A stretch of 42,550 bases of DNA from a virus (taxonomy: Duplodnaviria; Caudoviricetes). Below the pieces are notes generated by a model. The model did not search any database, was not told the origin of the DNA, and worked only from the letters and a program-made list of their open reading frames with translations. Position numbers and translations under genes: made by a program. Shown here in pieces: positions 1 to 42,550 of this stretch (position 1 is the first letter of the stretch; the number at the start of each line of letters is the position of its first letter). Where the stretch lies: IMG/VR virus record IMGVR_UViG_3300037851_000840, positions 1 through 42,550 of that record; one strand, 5' to 3'.

Positions 1-99
1 ATAATCGTCTTTCCAACTAAATCTTTGAACTTCATTTCTTCCTCCAGTCTGGCGTCAGTGTTTTGGCTTGTCCGAAACACTGCAAAAGATCAACCTAAC
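1..99. repeat. Direct repeat of 38766..38864 (5' part of duplicated cassette A)
   Basis: 99 bp identical to 38766..38864; identity stops right after CCTAAC, i.e. at the G of the minus-strand GTT core. Confidence 0.95.
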
Positions 100-145
100 A
101 ACAAATTAAGCGGCGTTGTCCGACCGCTTGAATGCCCGGTTGGAA
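93..145 (-). mobile_element. attC site 1 (53 bp)
   Basis: Minus strand TTCCAAC-CGGGCATTCAAGCGGTCGGACAACGCCGCTTAATTTGTT-GTTAGGT: R''/L''/L'/R' layout like short aadA-type attC. Confidence 0.88.
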
Positions 146-293
146 CTCTTTCGGAAATTTTCGGGTGTTTTGTGGTCAATGCCTAAAAAACGTAATTATT
201 ACAGATATTTGGTATTGACTTTTCCCCGAAAATATGATATGTTCTAAATTAGTTTTATCGTATTTCACTCTGTTCCGTATTTCACTCTTCCAA
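99..293 (-). mobile_element. ORF-less gene cassette (195 bp)
   Basis: Begins G|TTGGAA (294..288), complementary to its own attC R'' TTCCAAC (145..139); no ORF inside. Confidence 0.75.
215..243 (+). promoter_or_regulatory. Sigma70-type promoter, antisense to the array
   Basis: TTGACT-17 bp-TATGTT with extended -10 TG. Confidence 0.65.
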
Positions 294-368
294 CGATAGA
301 AATAAGCGGCTGAGGAAGGCGCAGAATGTACTTTTAATCAACTTTTTTTTATATTTGGTTTTTTTCAT
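282..368 (-). CDS. 28-aa basic leader ORF reading through the half attC
   Basis: GGAGG RBS then ATG at 368; MKKTKYKKKLIKSTFCAFLSRLFLSLEE. Confidence 0.35.
   Translation of the reverse strand: MKKTKYKKKLIKSTFCAFLSRLFLSLEE
288..330 (-). mobile_element. Right-half attC (L'-R' only) at the head of the array
   Basis: Minus strand GCGCCTTCCTCAGCCGCTTATTTCTATC-GTTGGAA; no complementary left arm upstream. Confidence 0.65.
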
Positions 369-1298: not shown

Positions 1299-1306
1299 AA
1301 AATTTT

Positions 1307-2185: not shown

Positions 2186-2226
2186 TTTTTCTCCTCTCTT
2201 TTCCTCTCTTCAGATGTTGTGAAATA

Positions 2227-2252
2227 CGGGGGATAAAAAAATTTATCCCCCG
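2227..2252. terminator. Intergenic hairpin
   Basis: CGGGGGATAAA-AAAA-TTTATCCCCCG, 11-bp perfect inverted repeat. Confidence 0.4.
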
Positions 2253-2285
2253 GTCTGATTGACACGGGGCTGGAGAGTACCCCTG

Positions 2286-2654: not shown

Positions 2655-2656
2655 CC

Positions 2657-3611: not shown

Positions 3612-3769
3612 TTTTTCCCCATTTCAGATCGAAAAAAATTTTCGATCTTTTTAGATTTGGTTTTTCCGGAGAGAAAATTGGAAATTGCCGCGTCTGAAAC
3701 TTTCAGTTTTTGGGCAATTTCTCTTTGACGAATGTTGTGGCGCATAAGCCACAGTCTGATTTTTTTCAT
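3608..3769 (-). CDS. Cro-like XRE HTH protein (53 aa, not in the ORF track)
   Basis: MKKIRLWLMRHNIRQREIAQKLKVSDAAISNFLSGKTKSKKIENFFRSEMGKK; AAGGTG RBS; divergent from the repressor-like HTH. Confidence 0.85.
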   Translation of the reverse strand: MKKIRLWLMRHNIRQREIAQKLKVSDAAISNFLSGKTKSKKIENFFRSEMGKK

Positions 3770-3788
3770 AAACACCTTCAAAAAAAGG

Positions 3789-3873
3789 TTGAAAACCTGA
3801 GAACATATAGATATGCTCAGGTTAAAAGTTTAACTGGGCAGATTTAATAACACCCATTTGAGAAGGTTGTCAA
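3789..3873. promoter_or_regulatory. Genetic switch: face-to-face promoters and operator-like inverted repeat
   Basis: Plus TTGAAA-17-TATGCT (3789..3817); minus TTGACA-18-TATTAA (3873..3844); inverted repeat AACCTGAG..CTCAGGTT (3794..3823). Confidence 0.6.
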
Positions 3874-3880
3874 GCAAAAA

Positions 3881-4616
3881 ATGCACTCAAAAGAGAGAAT
3901 AAAGCAAATTCGTAAAGTTTTGGGTTTAAGTCAGAAAGATTTTGCAACAAAAACGGGAATTAGTTATCGTTCAATCCAAAATAATGAAGATATTCCTAAA
4001 GTACCGCCTTTTCCCAAACTGTCTTACCAGCTACCCGAAATTCAATATATTTCAATTGAGCAACAGACGGCGCTATTGAGCGCTATTCCTGCTGGGGATC
4101 GTCCTGTCTTTGAATTTCTATTTGAATATGGATTGAGAGTGTCGGAGGTCTGCGGTCTGCAAAAAGATTGCCTCTCAGAAAATGAGGTGAAAATTTCCAG
4201 GGCATTTACGCGGGGAGAATTGAGGGAAGAAACTAAGGGGAAAAAAGATAGGCATTATCCCCTATCAGATTATGCCAGGGAAGTTTTGGGCAGGGCGCGG
4301 CTGAATTTTTCACCTTATATATTTGTGCGCTCTAATGGCAAAAACTATGACACGAAGTCTCTGAATAAGATATGGCACAAGGCAGAGGCAGAGACGGGGA
4401 TCAAGATCAAATTGCAGAATGCGGCGCGTCATTCACTAGGGTGTCAGTTGGCGGATATAGGAGTGGATTTTTGACCTGATCAGGGAGACGCTATGGCACT
4501 CAAACCAAATCATGACCAGGCGTTATGTGAAACGCAATTTGATCAAAATAAACGAGGCATTAGAGCTTAGAAGGGGTGTGCTAATCCCCTTCAAAAAAGA
4601 GAAAGTTGGGAAGTAG
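3881..4616 (+). pseudogene. XRE repressor N-terminus fused to a frameshifted tyrosine integrase catalytic domain
   Basis: HTH RIKQIRKVLGLSQKDFATKTGISYRSIQ, then YGLRVSEV and ARHS; stop at 4472 in a T5 run; the shifted frame continues DLIRETLWHSNQIMTRRY to TAG 4616. Confidence 0.85.
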
Positions 4617-4676
4617 TGGGAACTTTTTTTTTATTGATGAAATATTTAATGATTTCAATTATAATTTTTTAGGGTA

Positions 4677-4704
4677 GTGGGTTCGACTCCCGCCGCCTCC
4701 ATCA
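4677..4704 (+). mobile_element. attP core matching a tmRNA (ssrA) 3' end
   Basis: GTGGGTTCGACTCCCGCCGCCTCCATCA: T-arm plus acceptor strand CGCCTCC-A typical of tmRNA; directly downstream of the integrase in AT-rich DNA. Confidence 0.75.
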
Positions 4705-5004
4705 AGATATTCTTGATTTTCTTGATAAAAACATCGACAAAAATAGTTTGAAAATGGTTGGTAAAATAAATTAAATAATTTTACAAATTGAATAGACTCC
4801 CCTTATTATAGAAATAGATAATTTCCTCCCCCCCTATTCCCCCCTCATTAAAAATAAAACCAGAAAGTCACATGATCCAAATCAAGGTACTTTCTGAGAC
4901 CTTGAACAAGGGTCACCCGCCCCCGCCGCTTTGAGTGCGTTCATTTTTGAAAATGGAATGGAAAATGGAAAAAACCATTCCAAGAACAAAAAAGGAGCGC
5001 CTCA

Positions 5005-6579
5005 ATGGAGTATGAGCGTTTATTCAATTATGTTTCAATGGGAGCCCTGGGGGATGGGCTTTTATATCGAGATATTCATCAGCAGGATTTTATTTTTGAT
5101 GAAACCGGCGGGAAAAATGGCTTTTGGAATTTTTGGAATGGCCACTTTTGGCAAGAAGATTTTCGCCATCACAATCAAATAGCAGTTGAAAACGTCTCCC
5201 GGCAATATCTGGAGTTGAAAACCTGGCTCCAGAAAGACGACGCTGGCCGAAAATTCCTCTCTGAGAAATTCCAAGATCCGGACGATCAAAAAGAATTCCT
5301 CAAAACCATCACAAAAAAAATAAAATCTCTCAGAAATTCAGATGGCCGCAGGGCATGTCTGGAATTCGCTCACACCTGTGAAAATGGTTTATCAATCCTA
5401 TCTGAGCAATTTGATTGCCAGACTCACCTTCTCCCTGTTCAAAATGGCGTTTTAGATCTGAGACTTGGGGAAATCTCCCCTGGCCGTCAGTCTGATTTTT
5501 TAAAGAAAGCGGCGACGGTTGAGTGGCAAGGCTGCAATGCGCCCTGCCCTAACTGGAAACGCTTTCTTTTGGAAATCATGGATGGCCGGGAGGAAATGGT
5601 CACCTTCCTGCAACGGATTTTCGGCATGGCGCTTGCAGATCTCAACCGGCAGGCGGCGTTTTTCATTTTGATTGGCCGAGGCCGAAACGGAAAAACCCTT
5701 ATGTTTGAAACCATTTCAAACATTTTGGGGAATCTGGCCGGGCCAATCCGCATCGAAATGTTGCTCGATTCTGGAATGACCGCCAACCCAGACGCCCCAA
5801 CCCCTTCCCTGGTAACCCTCAAGGGCCTTCGCATGGCGTTCGCTCAAGAACCCAGCGAACGCGCCACCTTTTCAACCGCAAAAGTAAAGTGGTTGACAGG
5901 CCGGGACACCCTCCGGGCCAGGCTGCCCTATGCTGGGCTTGAAATGACTTTTAACCCTTCGCACACCCTCTTTATTTCTGCAAATAATTTGCCACATTTC
6001 GATGGCACTGACTTCGCTTTCAAAGAGCGCTGCCACGTCATCCCGTTTGAATTCTCTTATGTCGCCCGCGAACCCAGACAAGCGTTTGAGAGAAGGGCCG
6101 ACCCTGACCTTCCCAATAAACTCAAAGAAGAATACCCCGGAATCCTTGCCTGGCTTGTTCAGGGAGCGATTGACTTTATAGGAGAATGGAAAGGTCAAAT
6201 TGTTTCCCCTGCGCCGGTTTTAGAAGCAACATCAAAGTATTATGAAGCTGAGGATTGGCTTCAAGGTTTTCTCGATGCCTGTTGTATCATTGATCATGAT
6301 CCAGAAACCAAAACCGGCGCAACGGTTCTACATCATGCCTTTTGCGGCTGGTGGATAAAACACGTTTCCGCAAAACCGAGAACGCAAAGAGTGTTCGGCG
6401 CGGCGCTTTCCAAAATTTTTAAGCGTGGCAAAAGCGGAGACAAGCACTATGAAGGGTTGACCTTGAACAATGTTGGATATGATTTTTATAATAAATATCA
6501 AGTAATCATTGAGACCAGAGGCAATAAAGAAACAAAATCCAATCCGGACTATCCGGACGATTCTGGACGATTGCTTTAA
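5005..6579 (+). CDS. P4/D5-family SF3 helicase (D5_N plus ATPase; no N-terminal primase)
   Basis: FWNGHFW, VQNGVLDLRLG, Walker A GRGRNGKT, VKWLTGRDTLRAR, SANNLP. Confidence 0.92.
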   Translation: MEYERLFNYVSMGALGDGLLYRDIHQQDFIFDETGGKNGFWNFWNGHFWQEDFRHHNQIAVENVSRQYLELKTWLQKDDAGRKFLSEKFQDPDDQKEFLKTITKKIKSLRNSDGRRACLEFAHTCENGLSILSEQFDCQTHLLPVQNGVLDLRLGEISPGRQSDFLKKAATVEWQGCNAPCPNWKRFLLEIMDGREEMVTFLQRIFGMALADLNRQAAFFILIGRGRNGKTLMFETISNILGNLAGPIRIEMLLDSGMTANPDAPTPSLVTLKGLRMAFAQEPSERATFSTAKVKWLTGRDTLRARLPYAGLEMTFNPSHTLFISANNLPHFDGTDFAFKERCHVIPFEFSYVAREPRQAFERRADPDLPNKLKEEYPGILAWLVQGAIDFIGEWKGQIVSPAPVLEATSKYYEAEDWLQGFLDACCIIDHDPETKTGATVLHHAFCGWWIKHVSAKPRTQRVFGAALSKIFKRGKSGDKHYEGLTLNNVGYDFYNKYQVIIETRGNKETKSNPDYPDDSGRLL

Positions 6580-6814
6580 AGATCGTCCAAAACCATAACC
6601 TTCTTTAAAATCAACAAAAGTCGTCTGCCTTTGGGACGATAGACCGTGAACCAGGGGAAATCCCCTGGGGAAATTTTATAAAATTTTTTCCTTATCATTT
6701 TTCTATATATATCATCCATCATCCAGAGAGAGAGAGATTTTTCTGGTAGTTTTAAAAGGTTGCGGGTTTGGACGATCAAACAAAGGATCGTCCAGGATCG
6801 TCCAGATCATCCAG
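6542..6814. repeat. Iteron cluster, probable replication origin
   Basis: Repeated GGACGAT/ATCGTCC(A) in both orientations flanking an AT-rich core at about 6670..6720. Confidence 0.7.
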
Positions 6815-8224
6815 ATGAAGGAGGCAAAAAGTATGACTGAAAACATCATGGATCTATATAATCGAAAAGGATTTCATGCGATTAAGAACGCATCGCATGC
6901 ACACACGAAGGGCCGTTCAATGGGTGCTGAATATCACGGCGGCTGCCCGAAGTGCGGGGGTGAAAAGCGTTTTATCTTATGGCCGGAAGTTTCCGACGGG
7001 GGGGAGTTCTGGTGCAGGGATTGCGGCATAGGCGGAGATCTTTTGGCTTGGCTGACCAAGGTTGAAGGGAAACCCTATCGAGAGGCTTGCGCTTCGCTTG
7101 GACGTGATCCTGTGCGGAAATATTCCCCGTCTGCCCATGCGAAAACTTACCTTCCTTCTCAGCATCTCAGAAAATGGGAACCTCGCAATCCCCCCCCCGC
7201 GTGCGATCTTTGGGTAGAAAAGGCCGCAGGCTTTGTGGGATGGGCATCCCGGCAATTACAAAAACACCCTGAAATCATGGACTACCTGCAAAAAAGAGGC
7301 ATTTCAAAGCACACAGCAGAACGGTTCAATCTGGGGTATAATCCAGACGTGATTTATCGTCCCCGGACAGCGTGGGGACAGGAGGAGGTTCTCGATGACC
7401 AAACCGGAAAACTCAAACCCATTTGGATTCCGGAGGGGGTGGTGATTCCGGTGTATTCCAATAACCGTCTCTGCCGGGTGAGAATCCGCAGATTCAAGCT
7501 GCGCCCTGATGACAAAAATAAATACATCAACCTGACGGGATCGGTTTCAGTTTCGTTCAATTGCAATCCCGCAGTCCAGTTCGCAATCATTACAGAAAGC
7601 GAACTTGATACCCTGGCCATTCATGAGGCGGCAGGTGATTTTGTTTCTGCCGTGTCAACCGGGTCCGCGTCCACACGTCCAGATGCCTCGCTTCATGCTT
7701 TTTTTCAATCGTGTCTGAAAATTTTGGTTGCCCTGGATCGAGACGACGCGGGGGAAAAAAATATTCCTTGGTATTTGGAGCGCTACCGTCAAGCGGTGAA
7801 ACACCTGCCGGTTGAAGGCAATAAAGATCCTGGGGATATGGTGGCCAAGGGGATCAATCTTCGCGAATGGGTGCTTTCTGGGCTTCCGCAGGCTGTGCGG
7901 TTTAAAATGGAAAAGGCCGTTATTTCAATGGAAACTCCGCCGCAGGAAAAACGGGTTGAACCGGCGGAACCGGCTGTTCCGCCAAAAGAAGAGGAAAAAA
8001 AGGATGGGGTTCAAGAATTGTATCTTGTGATGAAAGAACACAAATTACTTAAAATTATCAATACATATGATCGTTTGGCATTTGAAAATCCGGCATATGA
8101 ATTGCCTTGGAATGTCATTTCTCAGGTTTCAGATTTGATTTTTCACAATAAAGAGGTGCTGTATTATATCCGCCACCATCCGGACGATTTCATTACTTAT
8201 TCAAATTTAATTATAAAAAATTGA
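6815..8224 (+). CDS. DnaG-type primase (Zn finger plus TOPRIM)
   Basis: CPKCGG..FWCRDCGIGGD, YLQKRGI, ITESELD, ALDRDDAG, KDPGD. Confidence 0.9.
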   Translation: MKEAKSMTENIMDLYNRKGFHAIKNASHAHTKGRSMGAEYHGGCPKCGGEKRFILWPEVSDGGEFWCRDCGIGGDLLAWLTKVEGKPYREACASLGRDPVRKYSPSAHAKTYLPSQHLRKWEPRNPPPACDLWVEKAAGFVGWASRQLQKHPEIMDYLQKRGISKHTAERFNLGYNPDVIYRPRTAWGQEEVLDDQTGKLKPIWIPEGVVIPVYSNNRLCRVRIRRFKLRPDDKNKYINLTGSVSVSFNCNPAVQFAIITESELDTLAIHEAAGDFVSAVSTGSASTRPDASLHAFFQSCLKILVALDRDDAGEKNIPWYLERYRQAVKHLPVEGNKDPGDMVAKGINLREWVLSGLPQAVRFKMEKAVISMETPPQEKRVEPAEPAVPPKEEEKKDGVQELYLVMKEHKLLKIINTYDRLAFENPAYELPWNVISQVSDLIFHNKEVLYYIRHHPDDFITYSNLIIKN

Positions 8225-8278
8225 TATATTTGTCTTTTATAATTTGCCAAATTCAGTGAATTATGGTAATATTGAGAC

Positions 8279-8638
8279 ATGATGCTGACACCTATTATAG
8301 AATTATCTGAAGAAGTCATCGGAAAAATTTGTTATGGGATTGACCTGGGCGCAGATTTTGAGGTGGCATGTATGTCGGCAGGGGTCATGCCTGAGACAGC
8401 AGCCAGTTGGATTCGCACCGGGATGGAAAAAAAGGAAGGACTTGAATATGCTTTGTATTTTTTGGTCATGCAAACCAGGGCGAGCTTCGAGGTTTCTCAA
8501 CTTGAGTTCCTCAAAAAAAACGGCGGTGTTACCGAAGCAAAGTATATGCTTGAAAAAACAAACCCAGGGAAATGGTCAGAATCCCATCAAAAAGCAACAG
8601 GGAAAAAGAAACCGAAAAAGATTGAGTTTCAAGGATGA
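8279..8638 (+). CDS. Hypothetical HTH-like protein of the packaging region
   Basis: ACMSAGVMPETAASW helix pair; YMLEKTNPGKW ending. Confidence 0.6.
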   Translation: MMLTPIIELSEEVIGKICYGIDLGADFEVACMSAGVMPETAASWIRTGMEKKEGLEYALYFLVMQTRASFEVSQLEFLKKNGGVTEAKYMLEKTNPGKWSESHQKATGKKKPKKIEFQG

Positions 8639-9246
8639 AATTTATGCAGATTGAAACCTGGCCGATTGACCGGATCATCCCGTATCATAAAAACGCTAAA
8701 ATTCACAAGGTTGACCAGATCGCCGCATCTATTCGGGAATTCCGAATAGATCAACCGATTGTGGTGGATCAAAACGGCGTGATCATCAAAGGTCATGGCC
8801 GTTTGAAAGCGGCCAAAAAGCTGGGGTTAGCAGAATTTCCGGTTGTGGTGCGGAAAGACCTGACTGCCGAGCAGGTTCGCCTGGCTAGAATTGCAGATAA
8901 CCGGGTCAGTGAAGGCGGGTGGAACCCTGAACTTTTGCAGGATGACCTGAAATCTCTGTTTCAGGCGAGTCCTTCTTTAGACTTTTCTTCTTTTGGTATT
9001 TCAAATGATTGGCTTAGCCAGTTTGCCTCGGAATCCTCTGTTTTTAATTTTTCGGAGAATTGCAATGAACCTGCTGAAAAAACGGATGAATCCGCGCAGA
9101 AAAAACCGGTTCATGAAATGAAATTGATTCCGATTTTGATGGAATTATCGCCATCTGAATTCAAAAAATGGAAAGAATTGAAAAAAAAATATCAGGTAAG
9201 AACCGATAAAGAATTGATTCTCAAATTGATCGGGGAGGAGTTATGA
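8635..9246 (+). CDS. ParB/Srx N-terminal domain protein
   Basis: IIPYHKNAKIH, PIVVD..IIKGHGRLKAA, RIADNR. Confidence 0.9.
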   Translation: MKFMQIETWPIDRIIPYHKNAKIHKVDQIAASIREFRIDQPIVVDQNGVIIKGHGRLKAAKKLGLAEFPVVVRKDLTAEQVRLARIADNRVSEGGWNPELLQDDLKSLFQASPSLDFSSFGISNDWLSQFASESSVFNFSENCNEPAEKTDESAQKKPVHEMKLIPILMELSPSEFKKWKELKKKYQVRTDKELILKLIGEEL

Positions 9247-10571: not shown

Positions 10572-10648
10572 TTCGTTCCTGCTCGGAGGGGTGGGAACGA
10601 AACACTGTCTTGAACCTGGATTCACAGGATTAAAGGATTTCCAAGATT
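10572..10648. repeat. REP-like hairpin plus 9-bp periodic repeat
   Basis: TTCGTTCC..GGAACGAA, then GGATTCACA GGATTAAA GGATTTCCA AGATT. Confidence 0.55.
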
Positions 10649-10653
10649 AAAAA

Positions 10654-11280
10654 GTGGATGACTTCCTTAAAGGCATTTTAAACCGGGCAGGCGGTGAAAT
10701 CGTAGGTTTGTTCGATGATTCGGAAAAAGAACCGGATCAACCGGATTTCCCTACCCTTTCTCATGTATTGCGGTTTTTGAGAGAGAAGGGGTATAAGGTT
10801 AAGAAATCAAAGCTATATCAAGATCGTAAAAAGGGATTGATCGAGGTTCGGCCAGATGGTTCGGTTTCTGGCAAGGCGGCTTTGGCGTATGCTGCCAGTT
10901 TGGAAAAAGAAGGAGGTGATCGGTCTGATATTCTTTCTGAAAATGCAGATCGAAAGTTTCAGGCAGAAATTCATAAAATCGTTGAACAAACCAAATCTAT
11001 TACCCTGCAAAGAGAGATTCTGGAAGGCAAATATATCCCCAGAACCGATGCCATTCGGCAGCGTGTGGATCAAATCACGGTCATTCAACTGAACCTTCGC
11101 AGTTGGATTGATCGCAAAGCCGGAGAATGGCGGAAATTTGAGGGAGCGGAAAAGGCGTTTAAGATCATGATTCATGATCAGCTAGATCAGGTTTTCAATG
11201 ACCTTGCAAAATCCGACAACTTCCGGGTTGAATATTTCGATGAAACTGAAGAGGGTGATGATGAAAAAAATGACTCATAA
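10654..11280 (+). CDS. Probable terminase small subunit (Nu1-like)
   Basis: HTH-like N-terminus, coiled coil, REILEGKYIPR; upstream of the GpA terminase. Confidence 0.7.
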   Translation: MDDFLKGILNRAGGEIVGLFDDSEKEPDQPDFPTLSHVLRFLREKGYKVKKSKLYQDRKKGLIEVRPDGSVSGKAALAYAASLEKEGGDRSDILSENADRKFQAEIHKIVEQTKSITLQREILEGKYIPRTDAIRQRVDQITVIQLNLRSWIDRKAGEWRKFEGAEKAFKIMIHDQLDQVFNDLAKSDNFRVEYFDETEEGDDEKNDS

Positions 11281-11518
11281 GTATGTATGGAAAAACAACG
11301 AGAAGCGAAAAACTCTTTTCAACCGGGCTTGTGTAGTTTTGAATCGTGGCAAAATGAATAGTATTTGCATAGAATTTGAAAACGGGCGCCGTGAAATTGT
11401 ATCTCGATATTCAGTTAGACGCATTAAAAACGATTCATGTACCAGTTAGATCAGGTTTTCAATGACCTTGCAAAATCCGACAACTTCCGGGTTGAATATT
11501 TCGATGAAACTGAAGAGG
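11183..11518 (+). repeat. 72-bp direct repeat (11183..11254 = 11447..11518)
   Basis: TAGATCAGGTTTTCAATGACC...GAAACTGAAGAGG present twice, 264 bp apart. Confidence 0.93.
11258..11449 (+). CDS. Small hypothetical protein between the repeats
   Basis: ..HKYVWKNNEKRKTLFNRACVVLNRGKMNSICIEFENGRREIVSRYSVRR; start uncertain. Confidence 0.65.
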   Translation: MMKKMTHKYVWKNNEKRKTLFNRACVVLNRGKMNSICIEFENGRREIVSRYSVRRIKNDSCTS

Positions 11519-14006: not shown

Positions 14007-14654
14007 TCAGTCCTCCACCACAAGCACGTCGCCATCTTCATCCATTCTAAATGAGAATGAATTGAAGAAACTCTCTGCTTTCTCCCTTATATATTCTGCC
14101 TCTTCAATAGTCTCTGGATATTTAAACCCTTGAGACAAATCCACAGCCGCAGAAATCCCGTCCCATCTGGGATTTAATGCCGTATATAGTTCTTCGCTTG
14201 CTGGGAATAATTCGCAAAAATTTTTCCAAAATAAACTTACCATCCCATCAAAATTTTCAATGCTGTGCCCCCATTTTTCCTCTAATTGGCAGGAGCTTTT
14301 CTCTATCATCAAATCATCCCTATGGTTTCTGAGTTTTCGATAGAATTCAGAGCCTTCCCTGCCAAGATATTTCAATATATTGAGAGTATTCTGGACTTCA
14401 TCCAAGTCAGAATTATCCCCAGATGCCAGCAATGCTTCCCCATATTGGTCCTTAATTGATTCTTCAAAATTTTCTGCGTCGCGATATGACTCTATAAAGG
14501 CTTCGTCTTCCGCGAAACTAAAAGTGTAGATTTCGTCGCTGCCCTCGATCTGATAAATATAATCCCCATATTCCTCATTTTCGTACCTAAACATTTCGCC
14601 GACTTCTTCTAGTATATCGGCTGCCATTGCCGCCCTGACTATTGATTTATGCAT
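14007..14654 (-). CDS. Acidic hypothetical protein
   Basis: 215 aa, strongly D/E-rich, AAAGGG RBS. Confidence 0.75.
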   Translation of the reverse strand: MHKSIVRAAMAADILEEVGEMFRYENEEYGDYIYQIEGSDEIYTFSFAEDEAFIESYRDAENFEESIKDQYGEALLASGDNSDLDEVQNTLNILKYLGREGSEFYRKLRNHRDDLMIEKSSCQLEEKWGHSIENFDGMVSLFWKNFCELFPASEELYTALNPRWDGISAAVDLSQGFKYPETIEEAEYIREKAESFFNSFSFRMDEDGDVLVVED

Positions 14655-14770
14655 AATTTTTCCCTTTCTATTTTGAGTTTTTTTGCCTCAGCACCATGCC
14701 TCAGCTTGATGACTTGAATCTAATCTCTCTTTTTTCAAAGAAAGATTCACATTTCATCTTTTCATAGATT

Positions 14771-15046
14771 TTATTGCTGTTTTGATATTACCCCCTTTCT
14801 GCCTCTGGTTTCTGGGCGTGTTTGGAGATATTCGATGGCTTTCGGCGAATACCTCCATTCTCTGCCCTTGCGCTCTGCAAGTCCGGCGGCTTGCAGTTCT
14901 AAATTATGGTGCCGGATTGCCTCTTTTCGCAGGCCGACTGCGTCGCCTAATTCTTGACTTGTGAGGACGCAGTCGGTTTTTGCTGATTGCAGGGCGGTTT
15001 TGATGCCTGCAATCTGTTTTTCGATTCTGGATAATGACAATGACAT
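14771..15046 (-). CDS. Winged-HTH-like DNA-binding protein
   Basis: LTSQELGDAVGLRKEAIRHH; C-terminal RGRKG; probable start MSLSLS at 15046. Confidence 0.65.
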   Translation of the reverse strand: MSLSLSRIEKQIAGIKTALQSAKTDCVLTSQELGDAVGLRKEAIRHHNLELQAAGLAERKGREWRYSPKAIEYLQTRPETRGRKGVISKQQ

Positions 15047-15077
15047 ATTTGTTATCCCTTTCCATTTTTTGGGTTTT

Positions 15078-15147
15078 GGTACTCTCTGAATCTTCTTTTT
15101 CAAGAGGATTCAGAGAGTACCTGAACTGTTTCGAGGTACAGTTCAGG
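15078..15147. other. Two adjacent hairpins in a leader
   Basis: GGTACTCTCTGAATC/GATTCAGAGAGTACC (15 bp) and CCTGAACTGT/ACAGTTCAGG (10 bp). Confidence 0.7.
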
Positions 15148-15224
15148 ATAAGAAACCTGGAATCTTGCACCGGCGCTCATGTTGGCGGCGGTGTGGGGTG
15201 CCTCCCATTGTTTTGTTGAAAAAA

Positions 15225-15272
15225 AATATAATATAGAAAAAAAGGTTTGTCAAGGGAAATTTTTCATGTCAA
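15225..15272 (-). promoter_or_regulatory. Repeated promoter module 3
   Basis: TTGACA-17-TATATT with a second TTGACA 19 bp upstream. Confidence 0.85.
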
Positions 15273-15466
15273 ACATTTTTTTGTTTTTTATTTTTTTTCA
15301 TTACATCTGCAGGAGATAGGGTTTTAAACAGGTTTCTTTTTTTATCAATCATATAAATTTCAGTTGAATTTTTTGGTAGCCAATAAGCGACTTCATCTTT
15401 TATGAAGGTAAAATCACCATTTGAGCTTTTAGTGGCAATTTGTTTGAATTTTTCTATTGCTTTCAT
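15269..15466 (-). CDS. Small hypothetical protein
   Basis: 65-aa ORF in the AT-rich island. Confidence 0.6.
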   Translation of the reverse strand: MKAIEKFKQIATKSSNGDFTFIKDEVAYWLPKNSTEIYMIDKKRNLFKTLSPADVMKKNKKQKNV

Positions 15467-15472
15467 TATTAT

Positions 15473-15694
15473 TCAATCCTTTTTTTGTAACATATCAATC
15501 TTAATTACATACTTTTCACTTTTTTTGTCAATAGAATAAAGTCCTTTTGAAAATAAATCAGCTGTTGCCTGCGCCATGACTCCCATTTGCAGGATTGCTT
15601 TTCTTTTATACCAGCTATCTCTTGATATTTTTCCGTTTTGATATAAAACATCCAGAACATCATATATTGTTTCTAATTTAATGGTTTTTTTCAT
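15473..15694 (-). CDS. Small hypothetical protein
   Basis: 73-aa ORF, AAGGA RBS. Confidence 0.65.
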   Translation of the reverse strand: MKKTIKLETIYDVLDVLYQNGKISRDSWYKRKAILQMGVMAQATADLFSKGLYSIDKKSEKYVIKIDMLQKKD

Positions 15695-15744
15695 TTTGTT
15701 TTTTTTCCTTTTGGTTTTGGGGAGGGTGTCCCTCCCCTTTTTGC

Positions 15745-15918
15745 TTATTCCGTGCAGTTTTCCAGCATTTCTTCGAATTCAGGGAAGTTTTTTTCGATAG
15801 CTGCGATTTTTTCACATAATGCGTTGAATGCTTTCATTTCGCTTTCGATATAGACAGATACATTTGATTTTAACATTTTAGCCATTAAGTTTTGATATTC
15901 TTCAAAGTTTTTATTCAT
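15745..15918 (-). CDS. Small hypothetical protein (57 aa, not in the ORF track)
   Basis: GGAG RBS; MNKNFEEYQNLMAKMLKSNVSVYIESEMKAFNALCEKIAAIEKNFPEFEEMLENCTE; first gene after promoter module 2. Confidence 0.65.
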   Translation of the reverse strand: MNKNFEEYQNLMAKMLKSNVSVYIESEMKAFNALCEKIAAIEKNFPEFEEMLENCTE

Positions 15919-15977
15919 TTTTACTTTCTCCGTTTCGTTTTTGGTTTGTTTTTCCCTACCGTCATTTTGTTGACCTC

Positions 15978-16025
15978 AATATAACTCACAGAAAAACTTT
16001 TGTCAACAAAAATATTTCATGTCAA
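15978..16025 (-). promoter_or_regulatory. Repeated promoter module 2
   Basis: TTGACA-17-TATATT with a second TTGACA 19 bp upstream. Confidence 0.85.
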
Positions 16026-16103
16026 AATAATTTTTTTTAATGGTCTTGAACTATGATTTGAATGATTGCTTTGAAAACTATGATTTCATGATCATGCAAA
16101 CAA

Positions 16104-16400
16104 TTAGAAGGGGGAATTAGAGATAAAACCTTTATCTTTTGCCATAAAATCAATTTCTTTTTCGATCATTCTTGAAAATTTTGATGAATTCAAAAAAGAA
16201 ATTCTTGCTGTGCTTTCTTTTGTTTTTTTCAATTTTCCTTCTCTTGTTTTTATCCAATTTTTTGCAGCAAGTTTATTTTCATTATTTTTCATTTCCTTTA
16301 TGATTTTTTTTGCTTCTGCGATATTTCCATCATTCATATTTTTTGAGAATGTTCTCCATTCTGCTTGATTTCTGGTCTCATATTTTTTTTGTTTAATCAT
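16104..16400 (-). CDS. Basic hypothetical protein
   Basis: 98-aa Lys-rich ORF, AAGGG RBS. Confidence 0.6.
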   Translation of the reverse strand: MIKQKKYETRNQAEWRTFSKNMNDGNIAEAKKIIKEMKNNENKLAAKNWIKTREGKLKKTKESTARISFLNSSKFSRMIEKEIDFMAKDKGFISNSPF

Positions 16401-16441
16401 GATTTTTTCCCTTTCATAGTCAATCAGTTAATCATTTTCAT

Positions 16442-16633
16442 CTATATTATTTGCGCCATGCTATCGGTTATATAAAGATTTTTTATTCCTATTCTTGTCA
16501 ATAAACTACTTGCGCAGTCAACATAAACACCTAAATTATCAATTATGATTATATTTTTGTTGATTTTTATGGTTACGTGTTTGTATCCCTTTTTTTCAAT
16601 TTCTTTTTTAATTTCATTTCTAAGATTTTTCAT
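16442..16633 (-). CDS. Small hypothetical protein
   Basis: Start MKNLRNE after AAGGA; downstream of promoter module 1. Confidence 0.6.
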   Translation of the reverse strand: MKNLRNEIKKEIEKKGYKHVTIKINKNIIIIDNLGVYVDCASSLLTRIGIKNLYITDSMAQII

Positions 16634-16681
16634 TGCTTTTTCCTTCTTTGGGGTTGTTTTTTCGTTCATCGTTATGGCGAG

Positions 16682-16729
16682 AATATACATCTTGAAAAAA
16701 GGTTTGTCAAGTGAAATTTTTCATGTCAA
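16682..16729 (-). promoter_or_regulatory. Repeated promoter module 1
   Basis: TTGACA-17-TATATT with a second TTGACA 19 bp upstream. Confidence 0.85.
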
Positions 16730-16862
16730 AAAAAATTTTTTTTTAATGGTCTGAACCGCAGATGGCCATCATGGAAACCTGTGGTCAAATTTAATCTGCC
16801 TTTCTTTTCCCCTTCCTTTTTATAGTCAGTTCGTTATTCCAAAAATTTTAAGTTTAAAAAAT

Positions 16863-37894: not shown

Positions 37895-38155
37895 AGGATT
37901 ATTTATTCTGGCTTTAAAGCCTGAAATTTCATTTCTTCATCCCGTCGTTCGGCATATACTCCATTGCCATTTTTTGTAAAATTGCAAAAGCCGGGATTCC
38001 AAAATTGACCAAATACCCTAAAATTTCAAGGGCTGCTCTGGCTTGTCGAGGAGCTAAACAGGTTTCGATGCACGGACGGAAAACCCATTGTTCAACGCCG
38101 GGCTCCGTTTTTTCTTTTAAAAATTTCGGTAATTTCTGCCGGATGTTGTATCATT

Positions 38156-38509
38156 TTAAGTCTCCTTTTGGTTCTGTTCCCGGTCGAGTGGCTGGTTATG
38201 GGTTTTTTTGGAAGATTTTTTAATCAACCACGCGTGATATTCCTTTGCTGTATGGACACAATGTCTATTATCAAGAGTACATTTACCATCTTGAAAACAT
38301 GGACAGCACACATCATTACAAAATGTTACCATACTTATACCTCCATCGTCCGGTTCATGCACTTGTTCGGCGCATTTTTTCTCAACAAAACCGACAAAAT
38401 CCCTCCCATTGCTATACATAAAACTTTTCGCCATCTCTCTATCGCTCGAAAAAACACCATCCCAATACTCTTCATCAGCAATCAACGCTTTTAATTCTGT
38501 AATATCCAT
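38156..38509 (-). CDS. Hypothetical protein, probably two fused cassette ORFs
   Basis: GAGGAGG RBS; internal GGAGG plus ATG (MVTFCND) just after a half attC. Confidence 0.55.
   Translation of the reverse strand: MDITELKALIADEEYWDGVFSSDREMAKSFMYSNGRDFVGFVEKKCAEQVHEPDDGGISMVTFCNDVCCPCFQDGKCTLDNRHCVHTAKEYHAWLIKKSSKKTHNQPLDREQNQKET
38177..38201 (-). mobile_element. Left-half attC remnant
   Basis: CCATAAC-CAGCCACTCGACCGG at the ORF end; no right arm. Confidence 0.5.
38347..38371 (-). mobile_element. Left-half attC remnant
   Basis: GCCGAAC-AAGTGCATGAACCGGACG; no right arm. Confidence 0.55.
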
Positions 38510-38526
38510 ATTCCCTCCTCGTGGTG

Positions 38527-38581
38527 CATGTACATTAAGTTAAGTGGCGGCTTTGCCGTCCACTTGAACGCCTTGTTAGGT
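38527..38581 (-). mobile_element. attC site 6 (55 bp), non-canonical R'
   Basis: ACCTAAC-AAGGCGTTCAAGTGGACGGCAAAGCCGCCACTTAACTTAAT-GTACATG. Confidence 0.85.
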
Positions 38582-38800
38582 TTCTTCGATTTCCACAAGC
38601 CCTTGTTCATCTTCTTGCAAAAAAACATAGGCCGGGTATTCATCCTCAGAATTACCAGAGTAGCTACCATAGGATGACACCACAAAACAATGAGAGCCAT
38701 CTTGGAACCCCAGCTTTGCCCACGCCTCATCGTCGTACTCTGGTTTTTTCATCAGTTGTGCGCTAATAATCGTCTTTCCAACTAAATCTTTGAACTTCAT
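38576..38800 (-). CDS. Cassette A: 74-aa acidic hypothetical protein
   Basis: GGAGG RBS, MKFKDLVGKTII; stop TAA inside R''; cassette starts G|TTAGGTT, complementary to AACCTAAC. Confidence 0.8.
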   Translation of the reverse strand: MKFKDLVGKTIISAQLMKKPEYDDEAWAKLGFQDGSHCFVVSSYGSYSGNSEDEYPAYVFLQEDEQGLVEIEET

Positions 38801-38857
38801 TTCTTCCTCCAGTCTGGCGTCAGTGTTTTGGCTTGTCCGAAACACTGCAAAAGATCA

Positions 38858-38967
38858 ACCTAACGTTCGTTTTCACCTGCCTTGAAAGGCGGGCGCAACG
38901 AGCTTTAATTTTCAGCAACCAAAGTTCCAGCCCGCCTTTCAAGGTCAGGTGCAAAACGTTGTTCTGC
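38858..38967 (-). mobile_element. attC site 5 (110 bp)
   Basis: GCAGAAC-AACGTTTTGCACCTGACCTTGAAAGGCGGGC...GCCCGCCTTTCAAGGCAGGTGAAAACGAAC-GTTAGGT. Confidence 0.9.
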
Positions 38968-39654
38968 TGTGTTTTCAATTCCGTCGAACAATTTGCCCTG
39001 ATAGGAATCAGGGTACACTACCGGCTTAAATAGATTCTGTTGTAATTCCGCCTGTCTGATACGCTTTTCAGCTATGACGAAGTAATCCGGCGAAATTTCA
39101 CAACCAATAAAAGAACGATTTATTTTCAGACACGCTTTCCCCACTGTGCCGCTTCCCATGAAAGGATCGAATATGACGTCCCCTTCATCTGAAATGATTC
39201 TGGCAATATGAGAAGCCCACATCACCGGCTTTGGGCATGGATGACCGTTTGCCGTTTTATCCTTGACGAAGGTTGCATGGAAATAATCGCTCTGCCGTTC
39301 ATGCTTTCCGGTTTTCCCGTAAATCAAAACCGGCTCCCAATTACTGAACCCGAAAGGTGAATGTCCTACAGAAAACGGTTTATGCCAACATAAAATCCAA
39401 ACAGGATCTTTTATGCGGCTCCACATGCTCAAATTCTTGGTGCCACAACTAAAGGCGATAGTTTTAGAACAAATTCGCTCTAATTCAGATAACCAATAAC
39501 CGCACCATTCAGCATAATCCTTGCGATTATCGTCGGTTGTTATCCCGTAATCAATGCCGACATTGTAGGGTGGGTCAGTAATCACGGCGTCAACGCTTTT
39601 ATCTGGCAGCGTTCGCATGTATTCAAGGCAATCGCCGTTGTATAACTTAACCAT
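38905..39654 (-). CDS. Beta-class N4-C/N6-A DNA methyltransferase cassette
   Basis: GDCLE, ITDPPY, HPCPKP, DPFMGSGT; C-terminus reads into attC5. Confidence 0.93.
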   Translation of the reverse strand: MVKLYNGDCLEYMRTLPDKSVDAVITDPPYNVGIDYGITTDDNRKDYAEWCGYWLSELERICSKTIAFSCGTKNLSMWSRIKDPVWILCWHKPFSVGHSPFGFSNWEPVLIYGKTGKHERQSDYFHATFVKDKTANGHPCPKPVMWASHIARIISDEGDVIFDPFMGSGTVGKACLKINRSFIGCEISPDYFVIAEKRIRQAELQQNLFKPVVYPDSYQGKLFDGIENTAEQRFAPDLERRAGTLVAEN

Positions 39655-39670
39655 GTTAAAACCTCAAGCA

Positions 39671-39778
39671 GCAGAACGTTTCATTTCACCGGCTTGGAAA
39701 GGCGGCGCAACTAAGCCTGAAATACAGCACCGGATTTTCTCGCCGCCTTTTCAAGTCCGGTGCAAATGATTGTTATAC
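39671..39778 (-). mobile_element. attC site 4 (108 bp)
   Basis: GTATAAC-AATCATTTGCACCGGACTTGAAAAGGCGGCG...CGCCGCCTTTCCAAGCCGGTGAAATGAAAC-GTTCTGC. Confidence 0.9.
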
Positions 39779-40219
39779 TTCCGTGCTTTTCTCCCACAAT
39801 GGCAAGAACGCCCGTTCTAAATACCACTGGTGCGCCTTTTTTGAATGAAAACCTAATGACGTTTCATGCCATTTGCTCAACCCGAAATTCGCGCTTGAAA
39901 TGTATATCGTTGACGGTTCAATCATCAGAATCTTTGAATGAACGCTTTTATTCAGCGCTATTCTGATATTTTGAAACCGATTTTTGATCCGCCCGGCGAT
40001 TGTAGCAAATTTCTCGTGAGCAATCAAAAAAATATCATACGGACGCCGAGAAAATTGAGTTTCGACATATTCCATGTTTGGCAGAGAATAGGTAATTATC
40101 CGCACGGTTCCTTCTTGTTTTGACAACTGGGAAAGTTTCATCGCCCAGGTTGCCCCACACGATAGCAATGCGTCATTGCACTTGAAAGCAATTCCTACAC
40201 TGTTAGTTTTAAACGCCAT
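39773..40219 (-). CDS. PLD/Nuc-like single-domain protein cassette
   Basis: HSKILMIE..YISSANF (HxK motif, D replaced by E); stop inside R'' of attC4. Confidence 0.8.
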   Translation of the reverse strand: MAFKTNSVGIAFKCNDALLSCGATWAMKLSQLSKQEGTVRIITYSLPNMEYVETQFSRRPYDIFLIAHEKFATIAGRIKNRFQNIRIALNKSVHSKILMIEPSTIYISSANFGLSKWHETSLGFHSKKAHQWYLERAFLPLWEKSTEV

Positions 40220-40239
40220 GTGCTTACCACAAGAAGGAA

Positions 40240-40297
40240 GTATAACAAAAAGTTAAGCGGCGGCGCTTTGGCCGTCCGCTTGAACGGCTTGTTAGAC
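40240..40297 (-). mobile_element. attC site 3 (58 bp)
   Basis: GTCTAAC-AAGCCGTTCAAGCGGACGGCCAAAGCGCCGCCGCTTAACTTTTT-GTTATAC. Confidence 0.92.
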
Positions 40298-40831
40298 ATC
40301 CCATTTCCCGGTATTGTCTTTTTCAAACGTCTTTTTTAATCCAAAATTCCCTTGCGTATGAAAGATAACAATACCTTCCGGTTTCATAAATCCTGGCGCT
40401 GCAATGCTTCCGCTAATCCTCAACTGATTCATAATATCCTCTACATTCAGCGTATCAAACGTCCCCCTCCATAACACAGGGACAACATGACAACAGATAG
40501 GACGGTTTTGTTCCCAACGTGCCGTGTTGAACAGGCTGAATCGTTTTTCACTCAGTCCATACCTGCGTTGTATCCCTTGCCCCCACCACTCTCCAAAATG
40601 ACGACCAACACCTAATTGCATAAGATCCTCTTTACGGTCATGCGCCCATCGAGAAAACCCGTAATTATCATCTTGCGGAGTAATCCACCGGGTACGGCTT
40701 CCGGTTAAAAATTCGCCGTCTTCCGTAATATGGATTTGGGCGTTCGTGCCATCGATTTTTTCAGTGACAATGACTTCACGGCTAAACCGCGATATTTTCG
40801 GAAACTTCATAAATTCTGGTTGCATAGACAT
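40292..40831 (-). CDS. RNA ligase (Rnl2-like adenylation domain) cassette
   Basis: Motif I TEKIDGTN, GSRTRW, FGEWWG, FSLFN, PEGIVI; stop inside R'' of attC3. Confidence 0.88.
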   Translation of the reverse strand: MSMQPEFMKFPKISRFSREVIVTEKIDGTNAQIHITEDGEFLTGSRTRWITPQDDNYGFSRWAHDRKEDLMQLGVGRHFGEWWGQGIQRRYGLSEKRFSLFNTARWEQNRPICCHVVPVLWRGTFDTLNVEDIMNQLRISGSIAAPGFMKPEGIVIFHTQGNFGLKKTFEKDNTGKWDV

Positions 40832-40843
40832 AATGTTCTCCTT

Positions 40844-40921
40844 TCAAAGTAGTTGGATTTTTGCGGTAGCTCCACGACGGAGCTTATTTACGATAGATTG
40901 CTTTGCTTGTTTCGTTTTCAT
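40844..40921 (-). CDS. 25-aa leader ORF
   Basis: GGGAGG RBS; MKTKQAKQSIVNKLRRGATAKIQLL; stop overlaps the ligase RBS region. Confidence 0.35.
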   Translation of the reverse strand: MKTKQAKQSIVNKLRRGATAKIQLL

Positions 40922-40946
40922 ATTATCCTCCCGCCTCATCGAAGAG

Positions 40947-41030
40947 GCATAACAAATTGATATAAAAGAAATATTTTTTTTGCGCTTTTTGAGAGCAAAA
41001 TAAAAAAATCTTTTTTAACTGCTGTCAATG
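40947..41030 (-). mobile_element. attI-like site with upstream AT-rich promoter region
   Basis: TTTTATATCAATTT-GTTATGC core with no attC hairpin; TTGACA at 41028..41023, weak -10. Confidence 0.45.
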
Positions 41031-41078
41031 CGTTTTAAACGACTCACAAAACATGAATCAAGAAAGAGGAAATCGTTA

Positions 41079-42230
41079 TTAGAAGTCAAGTTTCAAAACC
41101 TCCGCTATGTGCAATCTCACGTTATCAGAAATATGCTCCTTGCTTGATTCAATAATTTTGGTTATATTTTTCTTGCAATCTTCAAGAAAAGAAAAAACTT
41201 TTGTTGCTTCACTGCTATTTTTTAATCCGTTTAACAGCGTTTTTATCTCGTTGAACTTAATATAAGTTCTACCATAAGAACATCTCTTTATATCTTGTTT
41301 TTCTTCCCAATCCATTCTCCTGAATTGTTCGCCGGATGGCTGATAAACAAATTCTTCATTTTGAAAATTTTTATTAACACTGATAACATCAAATAATGCA
41401 TTGGCTAATACATCTTTCGATGTTCGGTAATTATCAATTATAGTTTGACACTCCCGTAAATTCAACTTTGGCACAGTTTTAGAAATATTATAAATCTTTT
41501 CGTATGGCAGCAAATAAAATTCTGCAAATTTATATGCAAAAAATTCAGGGACTTCATTTTCATCAATTCTGGATTTCCAATATAGGTTAGGAAGAAAGAT
41601 ATCTATTTGGACTTCAGTATCAATATCAAACAAGAGATGTGCGATTTCGTGTGCAAGAGAAAAGCGTATCCTCTGAGGCGGCTTGGAAATATTGATACAT
41701 ATAGCTACATGCTTATTGTTGTTAATGATAAAAGCGTCAAATTCAACATGGCTACTTTTGATAGGTAAAACAGGTATTGAAAAATTGGAAATAAAATTTT
41801 CAGGAGTCCCATATTTTAATTGAATTTTTGATGCAAAAGCAGCAGCCTCAGAAATAATATCAGCACGCTCATAACTCTTATTGCTGATCCGTGTCATTTT
41901 TGGAATGTTAATAGTCGGTAAAAAATCTTCAATTGATAAAAAAATATCTTCAATCTCTGATGCAAATTTTTGAATATTAAAATCTACATTTCGGAATGCC
42001 AATTTTGGCGTTGGATATTCTTCACTGTATATAAATCGAACAGGGTTTATTCCAAATCCATTACAAATTCTTGTTATTTCAGAAAAAGTAATTTCTCTCT
42101 TTTTTGACAAATATCCCTTAATAATCTCATCCGAAATTTTGATAAGATTGCAGACTTGATTCGCTGATATATTTCGCCTCTTAATTTCATACAAAATGCG
42201 ATTTGCTATTTCTTTACGAATACTTGTCAT
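41079..42230 (-). CDS. XRE HTH plus ImmA/IrrE metallopeptidase
   Basis: N-terminal HTH, RIRFSLAHEIAH (HExxH), EFFAYKFAEFYLLP; AGGAG RBS; AT-rich. Confidence 0.88.
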   Translation of the reverse strand: MTSIRKEIANRILYEIKRRNISANQVCNLIKISDEIIKGYLSKKREITFSEITRICNGFGINPVRFIYSEEYPTPKLAFRNVDFNIQKFASEIEDIFLSIEDFLPTINIPKMTRISNKSYERADIISEAAAFASKIQLKYGTPENFISNFSIPVLPIKSSHVEFDAFIINNNKHVAICINISKPPQRIRFSLAHEIAHLLFDIDTEVQIDIFLPNLYWKSRIDENEVPEFFAYKFAEFYLLPYEKIYNISKTVPKLNLRECQTIIDNYRTSKDVLANALFDVISVNKNFQNEEFVYQPSGEQFRRMDWEEKQDIKRCSYGRTYIKFNEIKTLLNGLKNSSEATKVFSFLEDCKKNITKIIESSKEHISDNVRLHIAEVLKLDF

Positions 42231-42252
42231 TCTCACTCCTTTTAACGGGTGT

Positions 42253-42390
42253 TCACAATAGAAATAAGTTGATTTCTATTTTCGTGATGCACCAGGAACA
42301 CAACGAGACTACAGTATCAATTTCTTCAGGCTGGAATTCCCCTAACACTTTCGATGTTTCGCTCTTATCATTTATACAAATTTTTATCAT
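42253..42390 (-). CDS. 45-aa ORF, possibly a truncated cassette gene
   Basis: MIKICINDKSETSKVLGEFQPEEIDTVVSL..., first ORF after attC2. Confidence 0.35.
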   Translation of the reverse strand: MIKICINDKSETSKVLGEFQPEEIDTVVSLCSWCITKIEINLFLL

Positions 42391-42418
42391 ATTTCCATTC
42401 ACCTTTCATTTACGAGAG

Positions 42419-42473
42419 GCCGAACATTAAGTTAAGTGGCGGCTTTGCCGTCCACTTGAACGCCTTGTTAGGT
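42419..42473 (-). mobile_element. attC site 2 (55 bp)
   Basis: Same as attC6 up to ..TTAATGT, then R' GTTCGGC. Confidence 0.88.
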
Positions 42474-42550
42474 TTCTTCGATTTCCACAAGCCCTTGTTC
42501 ATCTTCTTGCAAAAAAACATAGGCCGGGTATTCATCCTCAGAATTACCAG
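42424..42550. repeat. Direct repeat of 38532..38658 (3' part of cassette A)
   Basis: 127 bp identical. Confidence 0.95.

What the first reader, a model, noticed from the sequence alone, without database searches (positions are those of the whole stretch)
38150..42550. Phage-borne integron-type attC cassette array with phage-type cargo and no integron integrase
Seen: five full attC hairpins here (38527, 38858, 39671, 40240, 42419) plus one at 93..145. All are co-oriented on the minus strand, and each of the five sits at a gene end (stop codons fall in R'' in most). Established: this is integron cassette architecture, normally bacterial and shuffled by IntI. Seen: the only tyrosine recombinase here is a broken phage integrase beside a tmRNA att core. 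Inference: the phage keeps its own cassette array at the end of its early operon and uses host IntI in trans to gain and shuffle accessory genes, a phage-side counterpart to integron defence arrays.
Basis: partly seen in the sequence, partly recalled or inferred. Interest (0 to 1): 0.95.

Follow-up and report, generated by a model that had tools for sequence, protein, structure and literature searches.

The report
Phage carrying integron cassettes without integrase
An uncultured freshwater phage carries a real row of integron-type gene cassettes but no integrase of its own, one cassette doubled exactly at its recombination points and one shared with its likely bacterial host family, so it likely borrows a host enzyme to gain genes; such phage arrays are already published.

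Summary
The six attC sites are real. A covariance model built from host-family sites finds all six on the minus strand (E below 1e-6), scoring like the IntI1-validated sites of phage TJE1. Four cassettes have self-complementary ends. There is no IntI. The phage integrase is broken, and the tmRNA-type att core is internal, so the array lies inside the phage.

- 38527 and 42419 are one cassette, duplicated exactly between crossover points; the contig breaks inside the second copy.
- 38527 has a GTA core.
- The ImmA-to-ligase stretch is not a clean cassette.
- The gene-less cassette has a 76% homolog, boundary to boundary, in a Desulfococcaceae chromosome; 7 of 17 genomes of that family encode IntI.

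Best reading: a phage CALIN, likely built by host IntI in trans. Ongoing shuffling is unproven: no close relative was found. Phage CALINs, including methyltransferase cassettes, are published (Qi 2023), and this scan noted them often on other DNA. New member of a known kind.

The parts
282..368 (-). Small last ORF of the leftward early operon; its stop codon lies just inside the first cassette
99..294 (-). Gene-less cassette (195 bp between crossover Gs); its upstream boundary is a G|TT core behind a half-attC-like remnant
   Evidence: end complementarity of 7 nt; 76% homolog with the same ends in G001
184..257 (+). Conserved promoter-like motif inside the gene-less cassette, facing against the array
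   Evidence: consensus match only; conserved in host-order genomes
93..145 (-). attC of the gene-less cassette
   Evidence: 37.6 bits
1..99 (-). 5' part of cassette X, copy 2 (cut by the contig start); identical to 38766-38864
42424..42550 (-). 3' part of cassette X, copy 2, with most of its attC (cut by the contig end); identical to 38532-38658
42419..42473 (-). attC of X, copy 2 (G|TT core)
   Evidence: 55.5 bits
42253..42402 (-). 49-codon ORF behind the attC, probably a cassette remnant
   Evidence: only a weak NCBIfam hit, far below cut-off
41079..42236 (-). XRE-HTH plus ImmA/IrrE peptidase gene, 31% GC; not cassette-bounded
41015..41089 (-). 24-codon stub resembling the start of the partner gene that follows the ImmA homolog in G144; it ends at a G|TT
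   Evidence: 18 aa, 44%, E 0.016 in a one-contig search; weak
40292..40831 (-). RNA ligase gene (adenylation domain), stop in R''
   Evidence: PF09414, phrog_548
40240..40297 (-). attC after the RNA ligase gene
   Evidence: 64.9 bits
39773..40219 (-). PLD-fold protein gene in an intact 569-bp cassette
   Evidence: PF13091 E 4e-5; predicted-structure matches to PLD-family clusters; end match of 11 nt
39671..39778 (-). Long attC of the PLD cassette
   Evidence: 40.3 bits
38905..39654 (-). Orphan N6/N4 DNA methyltransferase gene in an intact 813-bp cassette
   Evidence: PF01555; end match of 9 nt
38858..38967 (-). Long attC of the methyltransferase cassette
   Evidence: 41 bits
38533..38864 (-). 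Cassette X, copy 1 (331 bp; 74-aa ORF at 38576-38800, function unknown, nearest Atlas cluster mostly viral)
   Evidence: end match of 8 nt
38527..38581 (-). Terminal attC with a non-canonical G|TA core, likely impaired
   Evidence: 46 bits, with one broken pair in the R box
38156..38509 (-). 117-aa ORF after the last site; no attC found behind it
3881..4474 (+). Broken phage integrase (repressor HTH fused to the integrase C-terminal half, frameshifted); not an IntI
4679..4705 (+). attP-type core matching a tmRNA 3' end
   Evidence: 96% over 27 nt to the tmRNA end in G003
10604..10650 (.). Single copy of a host-family dispersed repeat (host clue)
   Evidence: 31-67 matches in each of 6 of 17 family genomes, 1 match in a seventh

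Best explanation
This lambda-like phage, likely of a Desulfococcaceae host, carries a real integrase-less attC cassette array at the far end of its leftward early operon, likely built one cassette at a time by an integron integrase supplied in trans by the host. Shown: six attC sites, four cassettes with matching ends, one cassette duplicated exactly between crossover points, no IntI, and a gene-less cassette shared with a host-family chromosome. Inferred: a first cassette landed at a secondary G|T site in the last early gene, and later cassettes entered by attC x attC recombination while single-stranded phage DNA was exposed. Early-operon read-through would express the mostly promoterless genes. 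The methyltransferase and RNA ligase would blunt restriction and RNA-cleaving defences. The terminal G|TA site likely anchors the array, and older parts (ImmA region) have decayed.
For: All six sites hit a model made from host-family sites, which scores the three TJE1 sites at 34.6-46.7 bits; Qi 2023 showed two TJE1 sites work with IntI1. Own-end complementarity runs 7, 8, 9 and 11 nt in the four intact cassettes. The X repeat stops at the crossover G on one side (99 and 38864) and at G-T on the other (38532 and 42424), and is identical over all 226 visible bases. The gene-less cassette recurs, ends included, between other neighbours in G001, and many short variant contigs pile on it in both runs. 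Host clues agree: attC type, dispersed repeat, tmRNA core. IntI is over the cut-off in 7 of 17 family genomes, including 4 of the 6 rich in the repeat. In the closed genome G007, all 11 attC hits lie more than 0.9 Mb from intI, as expected if IntI acts at a distance. att is internal and the phage flanks both ends of the array, which argues against host flank.
Against: No close relative of the phage was found, so gain or loss at this locus was not observed. G001, the genome sharing the cassette, has no IntI over the cut-off. The terminal core G|TA does not fit the GWT target consensus reported by the 2022.09.11.507474 preprint, so seeding at a single such site needs a later mutation. The only allelic difference seen in run X1 lies inside the methyltransferase gene, not at cassette ends. 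No attI or Pc was identified. The two long attC sites had no counterpart in viral contigs or in 301 phylum genomes. Expression and function of the cargo are untested.
Confidence: 0.6

Rival explanations
1. Block capture: the array was assembled elsewhere (host chromosome or another phage), entered this phage once by homologous or illegitimate recombination, and has been static or decaying since.
For: Decayed parts: the G|TA core, the half-attC at the 5' boundary (also seen before the G001 homolog), the truncated ImmA partner. Qi 2023 propose this route. Family chromosomes hold many such sites (75 hits in G001).
Against: The cargo is phage-type: the ligase family lies free in most viral loci (no adjacent site in 76 of 80), and X's nearest cluster is 85% viral. 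The host arrays viewed shared only the gene-less cassette and attC type with the window. The X copies are identical in what is visible, so that event is recent relative to the decay.
Confidence: 0.2
2. The integrase comes from another mobile element, such as a co-infecting phage with its own IntI, rather than from the host chromosome.
For: Two viral records with phage replication and repressor genes carry a full IntI beside arrays holding an RNA ligase cassette (G408, G409), and they differ exactly at a core. An unrelated phage (G406) has an attC 98% identical over 49 nt to X's but another gene in it.
Against: Those records are about 59% GC and carry another attC type; nothing links them to this host. 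The host family itself has IntI.
Confidence: 0.1
3. Assembly mixture: X is single-copy per molecule. The contig joins a short phage (gene-less cassette, X, end) with a separate X-bounded 3.9-kb circle or a sister strain's insert.
For: Both contig ends fall in the X repeat (127 and 99 bases). One X2 contig runs from 38431 through X straight into attC 93 (record 12).
Against: That contig has depth 6.25 against about 3.4-4.6 for listed neighbours, as a collapsed two-copy repeat would. In X1, contigs end 30 bases into the repeat from both entries, and block depth (7.8-8.7) is near body depth (9.4). Contig depth is a weak measure, and either run may be the source sample. Even this reading needs cassette-precise recombination.
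Confidence: 0.1

Closest known systems
CALINs in phage genomes, especially Tetrasphaera phage TJE1 (Qi et al. 2023, PMC9892861)
   Same: Co-oriented attC sites with genes in the usual orientation, no intI, an orphan N6/N4 methyltransferase cassette; TJE1 sites hit the same model.
   Different: Six sites here, against three in TJE1 and two to four in the paper's Table S1. There is a cassette-precise duplication and a cassette shared with a likely host family; I saw neither in the parts of that paper I read. Nothing here is tested at the bench.
Bacterial CALINs and SALINs formed by IntI insertion at GWT (attG-type) sites (bioRxiv 10.1101/2022.09.11.507474)
   Same: A small array away from any intI; the 5' boundary is a G|TT in an ordinary gene.
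   Different: The target is a phage genome, and the 3' core is G|TA, not GWT.
Gene-less promoter cassettes (bioRxiv 10.1101/2023.11.21.568050; PMC6557892)
   Same: A short ORF-less cassette with a conserved promoter-like motif.
   Different: The motif faces against the array here and in G001, but with the array in 9 of the 13 matching genomes; activity is untested.
Complete integrons, including anti-phage arrays (bioRxiv 10.1101/2024.07.02.601686 and .601719)
   Same: Same cassette and attC anatomy.
   Different: No intI, attI or Pc; the cargo is phage-type rather than host defence.

Membership tests
attC site | R'' (AAC) and R' (GTT) cores at the two ends | tested here: met
   5 of 6 sites; the sixth (38527) has GTA
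attC site | Paired L''/L' boxes with extrahelical bases, an unpaired central spacer, and a bottom strand that folds | tested here: met
   L boxes pair 7 of 7 after removing one base at all six sites; the bulges show in the folds; the R box pairs in the minimum-energy fold at 5 of 6, not at 38527
attC site | Covariance-model match | tested here: met
   Own model from 14 host-family sites found next to sites that resembled the window's, so not fully independent; 6 of 6 hit; TJE1 control 3 hits. IntegronFinder's model was not available.
attC site | Recombined by IntI on the bottom strand | not testable with these tools
   needs the conjugation assay
Integron gene cassette | R'' complementary to the cassette's own 5' core | tested here: met
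   4 of 5 intervals (7, 8, 9, 11 nt); the ImmA-ligase interval fails with 3 nt
Integron gene cassette | Found in other contexts with the same boundaries | tested here: met
   Gene-less cassette in G001; X at two places in this record. Not shown for the methyltransferase, PLD or ligase cassettes.
CALIN | Cluster of co-oriented attC sites a few kb apart or less | tested here: met
   six sites, largest gap 2.2 kb once the contig is read as a circle
CALIN | No integron integrase nearby | tested here: met
   no TIGR02249 match in the record, which CheckV puts at 96% complete
Complete integron | intI gene | tested here: not met
   the 3881-4474 protein matches only generic recombinase models, far below cut-off
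Complete integron | attI site and Pc promoter | tested here: inconclusive
   none recognised by eye; promoter matches are near chance; no attI model for this clade was at hand

The most novel reading that the evidence does not exclude
Phages run their own cassette pool: ordinary phage early genes are repeatedly packaged as attC cassettes, in either orientation, and traded between unrelated phages by host or phage IntI. X's family occurs free, as a reversed cassette and as a forward cassette; the RNA ligase family occurs free, reversed and forward of an attC; and one attC sequence serves different genes in unrelated phages. This would make phages a visible factory for new cassettes and give an entry to the open question of how cassettes are made.
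Probability: 0.35. Interest if true: 0.75.

Novelty: new member of a known kind. Interest (0 to 1): 0.42.

Why it matters
Phage CALINs are in print, but the published evidence I read is site prediction plus an E. coli assay. This example adds two genomic signs that such an array has been worked on by an integrase and connects to a bacterial pool: a duplication bounded by crossover points, and a cassette shared end to end with a likely host family. If turnover on the phage were proven, integrons would serve both sides of the phage-host conflict, and the free, forward and reversed forms of the same phage genes would make cassette creation testable. As it stands it is a good further example, not a new system.

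Tried and rejected
Looking for close relatives failed. Terminase in viral contigs gave 14 loci, best 49%; the last late gene gave 4 spurious partial hits; the capsid gene matched 9 of 401 order genomes at 33-40%. The array DNA matched only small gene pieces in 14 phage records and nothing in plasmids. Both metagenome scans were empty. The long attC pattern found nothing in viral contigs or in 301 phylum genomes (no positive control). A short motif from the gene-less cassette gave 18 viral loci; the 10 I tested had no attC, so I took them as chance. Of 12 viral loci from the short attC pattern, only L023 held an array and L025 a single site. Rfam and ARAGORN found nothing in the window. Gaps in cover in run X1 (38651-39250; 301-9000) are no evidence, since only about 75% of the run was read. 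Rejected: a prophage inserted in a host array (att core is internal, and both ends lie in the same cassette); the phage integrase as the cassette enzyme (broken, no IntI match); the palindrome near 42260-42283 as an attC (no model hit). ImmA as a RosmerTA antitoxin is a lead only (E 1e-10). The ImmA homolog in G144 has no attC within the 20 kb fetched.
Full report
Setting. The window is the whole record, a virus contig of 42,550 bases that CheckV puts at 96% complete. It encodes a lambda-like siphophage: gpA-type terminase, lambda portal, protease-capsid fusion, tape measure, primases. A leftward early operon runs from a small HTH gene at 3781 down to about 282 on the minus strand. The gene at 3881-4474 is a repressor HTH fused to the C-terminal half of a tyrosine integrase, frameshifted near its end; an X2 contig covers 4160-4719 without difference. 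The core at 4679-4705 matches the 3' end of a tmRNA in G003. Because att is internal, the contig is the excised form, and the array lies between the early operon and the end of the late operon.

Observation. Six attC sites lie on the minus strand. My strict scan found 5 of the 6, against 2 hits in 6 shuffled windows. I aligned 14 attC sites from host-order chromosomes. They were neighbours of sites found by likeness to the window, so the set is not fully independent. Their stem covaries (10 pairs with changes on both sides). The model built from them finds 6 of 6 window sites at 37.6-64.9 bits and three TJE1 sites at 34.6-46.7 bits. Four of five intervals have an R'' that complements the cassette's own start, for 7, 8, 9 and 11 bases; the ImmA-ligase interval matches only the core. 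Stops lie in R'' at 4 of the 5 sites in the finding. No IntI is present.

Bases 1-99 equal 38766-38864, and 42424-42550 equal 38532-38658. Both contig ends thus lie in a second copy of one 331-bp cassette, X, with 107 bases unseen. The repeat stops at the crossover G on one side and at G-T on the other. Read as a circle, the order is: early operon, gene-less cassette, X, ImmA region with RNA ligase, PLD-fold gene, methyltransferase, X again, a last ORF. The last site has a G|TA core. After ImmA sits a 24-codon stub weakly like the partner gene that follows the homolog in G144 (E 0.016), so that part looks decayed.

Reads. Two runs hold the stretch; either may be the source sample. In X1, contigs end 30 bases into the repeat from both entries, and depth is 9.4 on the phage body and 7.8-8.7 on the block. 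In X2 one contig runs through X straight into attC 93, which closes the circle. Its depth is 6.25 against 3.4-4.6 for listed neighbours, so it may be a collapsed repeat or a true short form; contigs cannot tell. X1 carries a different methyltransferase allele between 39348 and 39583, inside the gene. The gene-less cassette draws many short variant contigs: summed depth 138 in X1 and 23 in X2 for bases 1-300, against about 4 elsewhere in X2. This suggests other molecules in those samples carry near copies.

Host. An attC pattern hit one genome in the GTDB set, a Desulfococcaceae MAG, G001. G001 holds the gene-less cassette at 76%, from core to core, between other neighbours. A repeat at 10604-10650 has 31-67 matches in each of 6 of 17 family genomes. 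IntI passes the cut-off in 7 of 17, including 4 of those 6, but not in G001. The model finds 75 sites in G001 and 11 in the closed genome G007, none near its intI (lower bounds, 150 candidates scored per genome). DNA of the gene-less cassette matched 13 of 401 order genomes. By my reading, its promoter-like motif faces with the array in 9 of the 13, against it in G001 as in the window, and is unclear in 3. Alone, the promoter match is near chance. The host assignment is inference; no CRISPR or prophage link was found.

Cargo. The methyltransferase is an orphan N6/N4 enzyme. The 148-aa protein has a PLD fold by predicted structure. X has five homologs, and its nearest Atlas cluster is 85% viral. 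Of two viral X homologs, one lies in a cassette reversed relative to attC and one lies free. Of the best 80 of 150 viral ligase loci, 4 have an attC within 300 bases, always with the gene reversed; 77 of the 80 had both flanks. These 4 are two near-identical pairs. Two of those records carry a full IntI beside phage replication genes and diverge exactly at a core. The PLD homolog L105 has no model hit. An unrelated phage, G406, has six model hits, no IntI, and an attC 98% identical over 49 bases to X's with another gene in it. That ligase and methyltransferase counter host defences follows from what is known of T4 RNA repair and orphan methyltransferases (recalled; the latter also in Qi 2023) and was not tested.

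Mechanism. Shown: anatomy, cassette-precise duplication, a cassette shared with a host-family chromosome, IntI in that family. Inferred: IntI in trans seeded and extended the array, and early transcription reads into it. The duplication is what excision and re-insertion, or insertion of a multi-cassette circle from a sister phage, would leave; it does not say on which molecule this happened. I put this reading at 0.6, block capture at 0.2, a phage-supplied IntI at 0.1 and an assembly mixture at 0.1.

What is known. Qi et al. 2023 (PMC9892861; I read parts 1-4 of 7, which cover the main text, and part 1 of 2 of the supplement) report 17 CALINs in 10,705 phage genomes, five methyltransferase cassettes, and IntI1 activity at 5 of 6 sites; their Dryad annotation file was not seen. 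From bioRxiv 10.1101/2022.09.11.507474 I saw passages on GWT insertion and SALINs. From 10.1101/2023.11.21.568050 I saw the abstract, on sense and antisense promoter cassettes. PMC6557892 and the two anti-phage integron preprints I saw as search listings only. Passages of PMC13323075, PMC12690207 and PMC13366799 added nothing. Searches showed no other paper on turnover of phage CALINs or on phage genes being packaged as cassettes; the library lacks most subscription journals, and preprint supplements were closed. This scan's own notes hold many phage CALINs on other DNA; none covers this genome.

Verdict. This is a new member of a known kind, with better than usual genomic signs of integrase action. 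Interest 0.42.

Noticed in passing
G409 (L241:12132-18417) and G408 (L243:3-3185): Phage-like viral records with a full IntI beside arrays (10 sites in G409) whose ligase gene is reversed relative to attC; the two share the RNA ligase cassette at 99.9% and diverge exactly at a core.
   Followed up: partly
L023:2215-4167 (G406): An unrelated 55.6-kb phage with six attC hits, tiny genes and no IntI; one attC is nearly identical to X's but carries another gene.
   Followed up: partly
L071 (G062:C46): A run of about a dozen attC sites spaced only 80-105 bases apart, apparently tiny empty cassettes.
   Followed up: no
window 184-257; L065, L090, L218-L234: A conserved promoter-like motif shared by gene-less cassettes across the host order, tandemly repeated in G037.
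   Followed up: partly
window 14007-16790: A low-GC block of small minus-strand ORFs between terminase and head-tail adaptor, with repeated promoter-like leaders; no attC hit.
   Followed up: no
window 3881-4600: The repressor-integrase fusion suggests a deletion of the lysogeny module, so the phage has probably lost the ability to integrate.
   Followed up: partly
P0051 versus window 38905-39654: A 90% identical methyltransferase allele ends earlier, in residues encoded by the attC arm; it may be an attC variant or an assembly slip at the hairpin.
   Followed up: no
window 11183-11254 and 11447-11518: An exact 72-base direct repeat near the terminase small subunit gene.
   Followed up: no
window 42260-42283: A palindrome upstream of the ImmA gene, shared with another contig in run X1 that then diverges; possibly the repressor's operator.
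   Followed up: no
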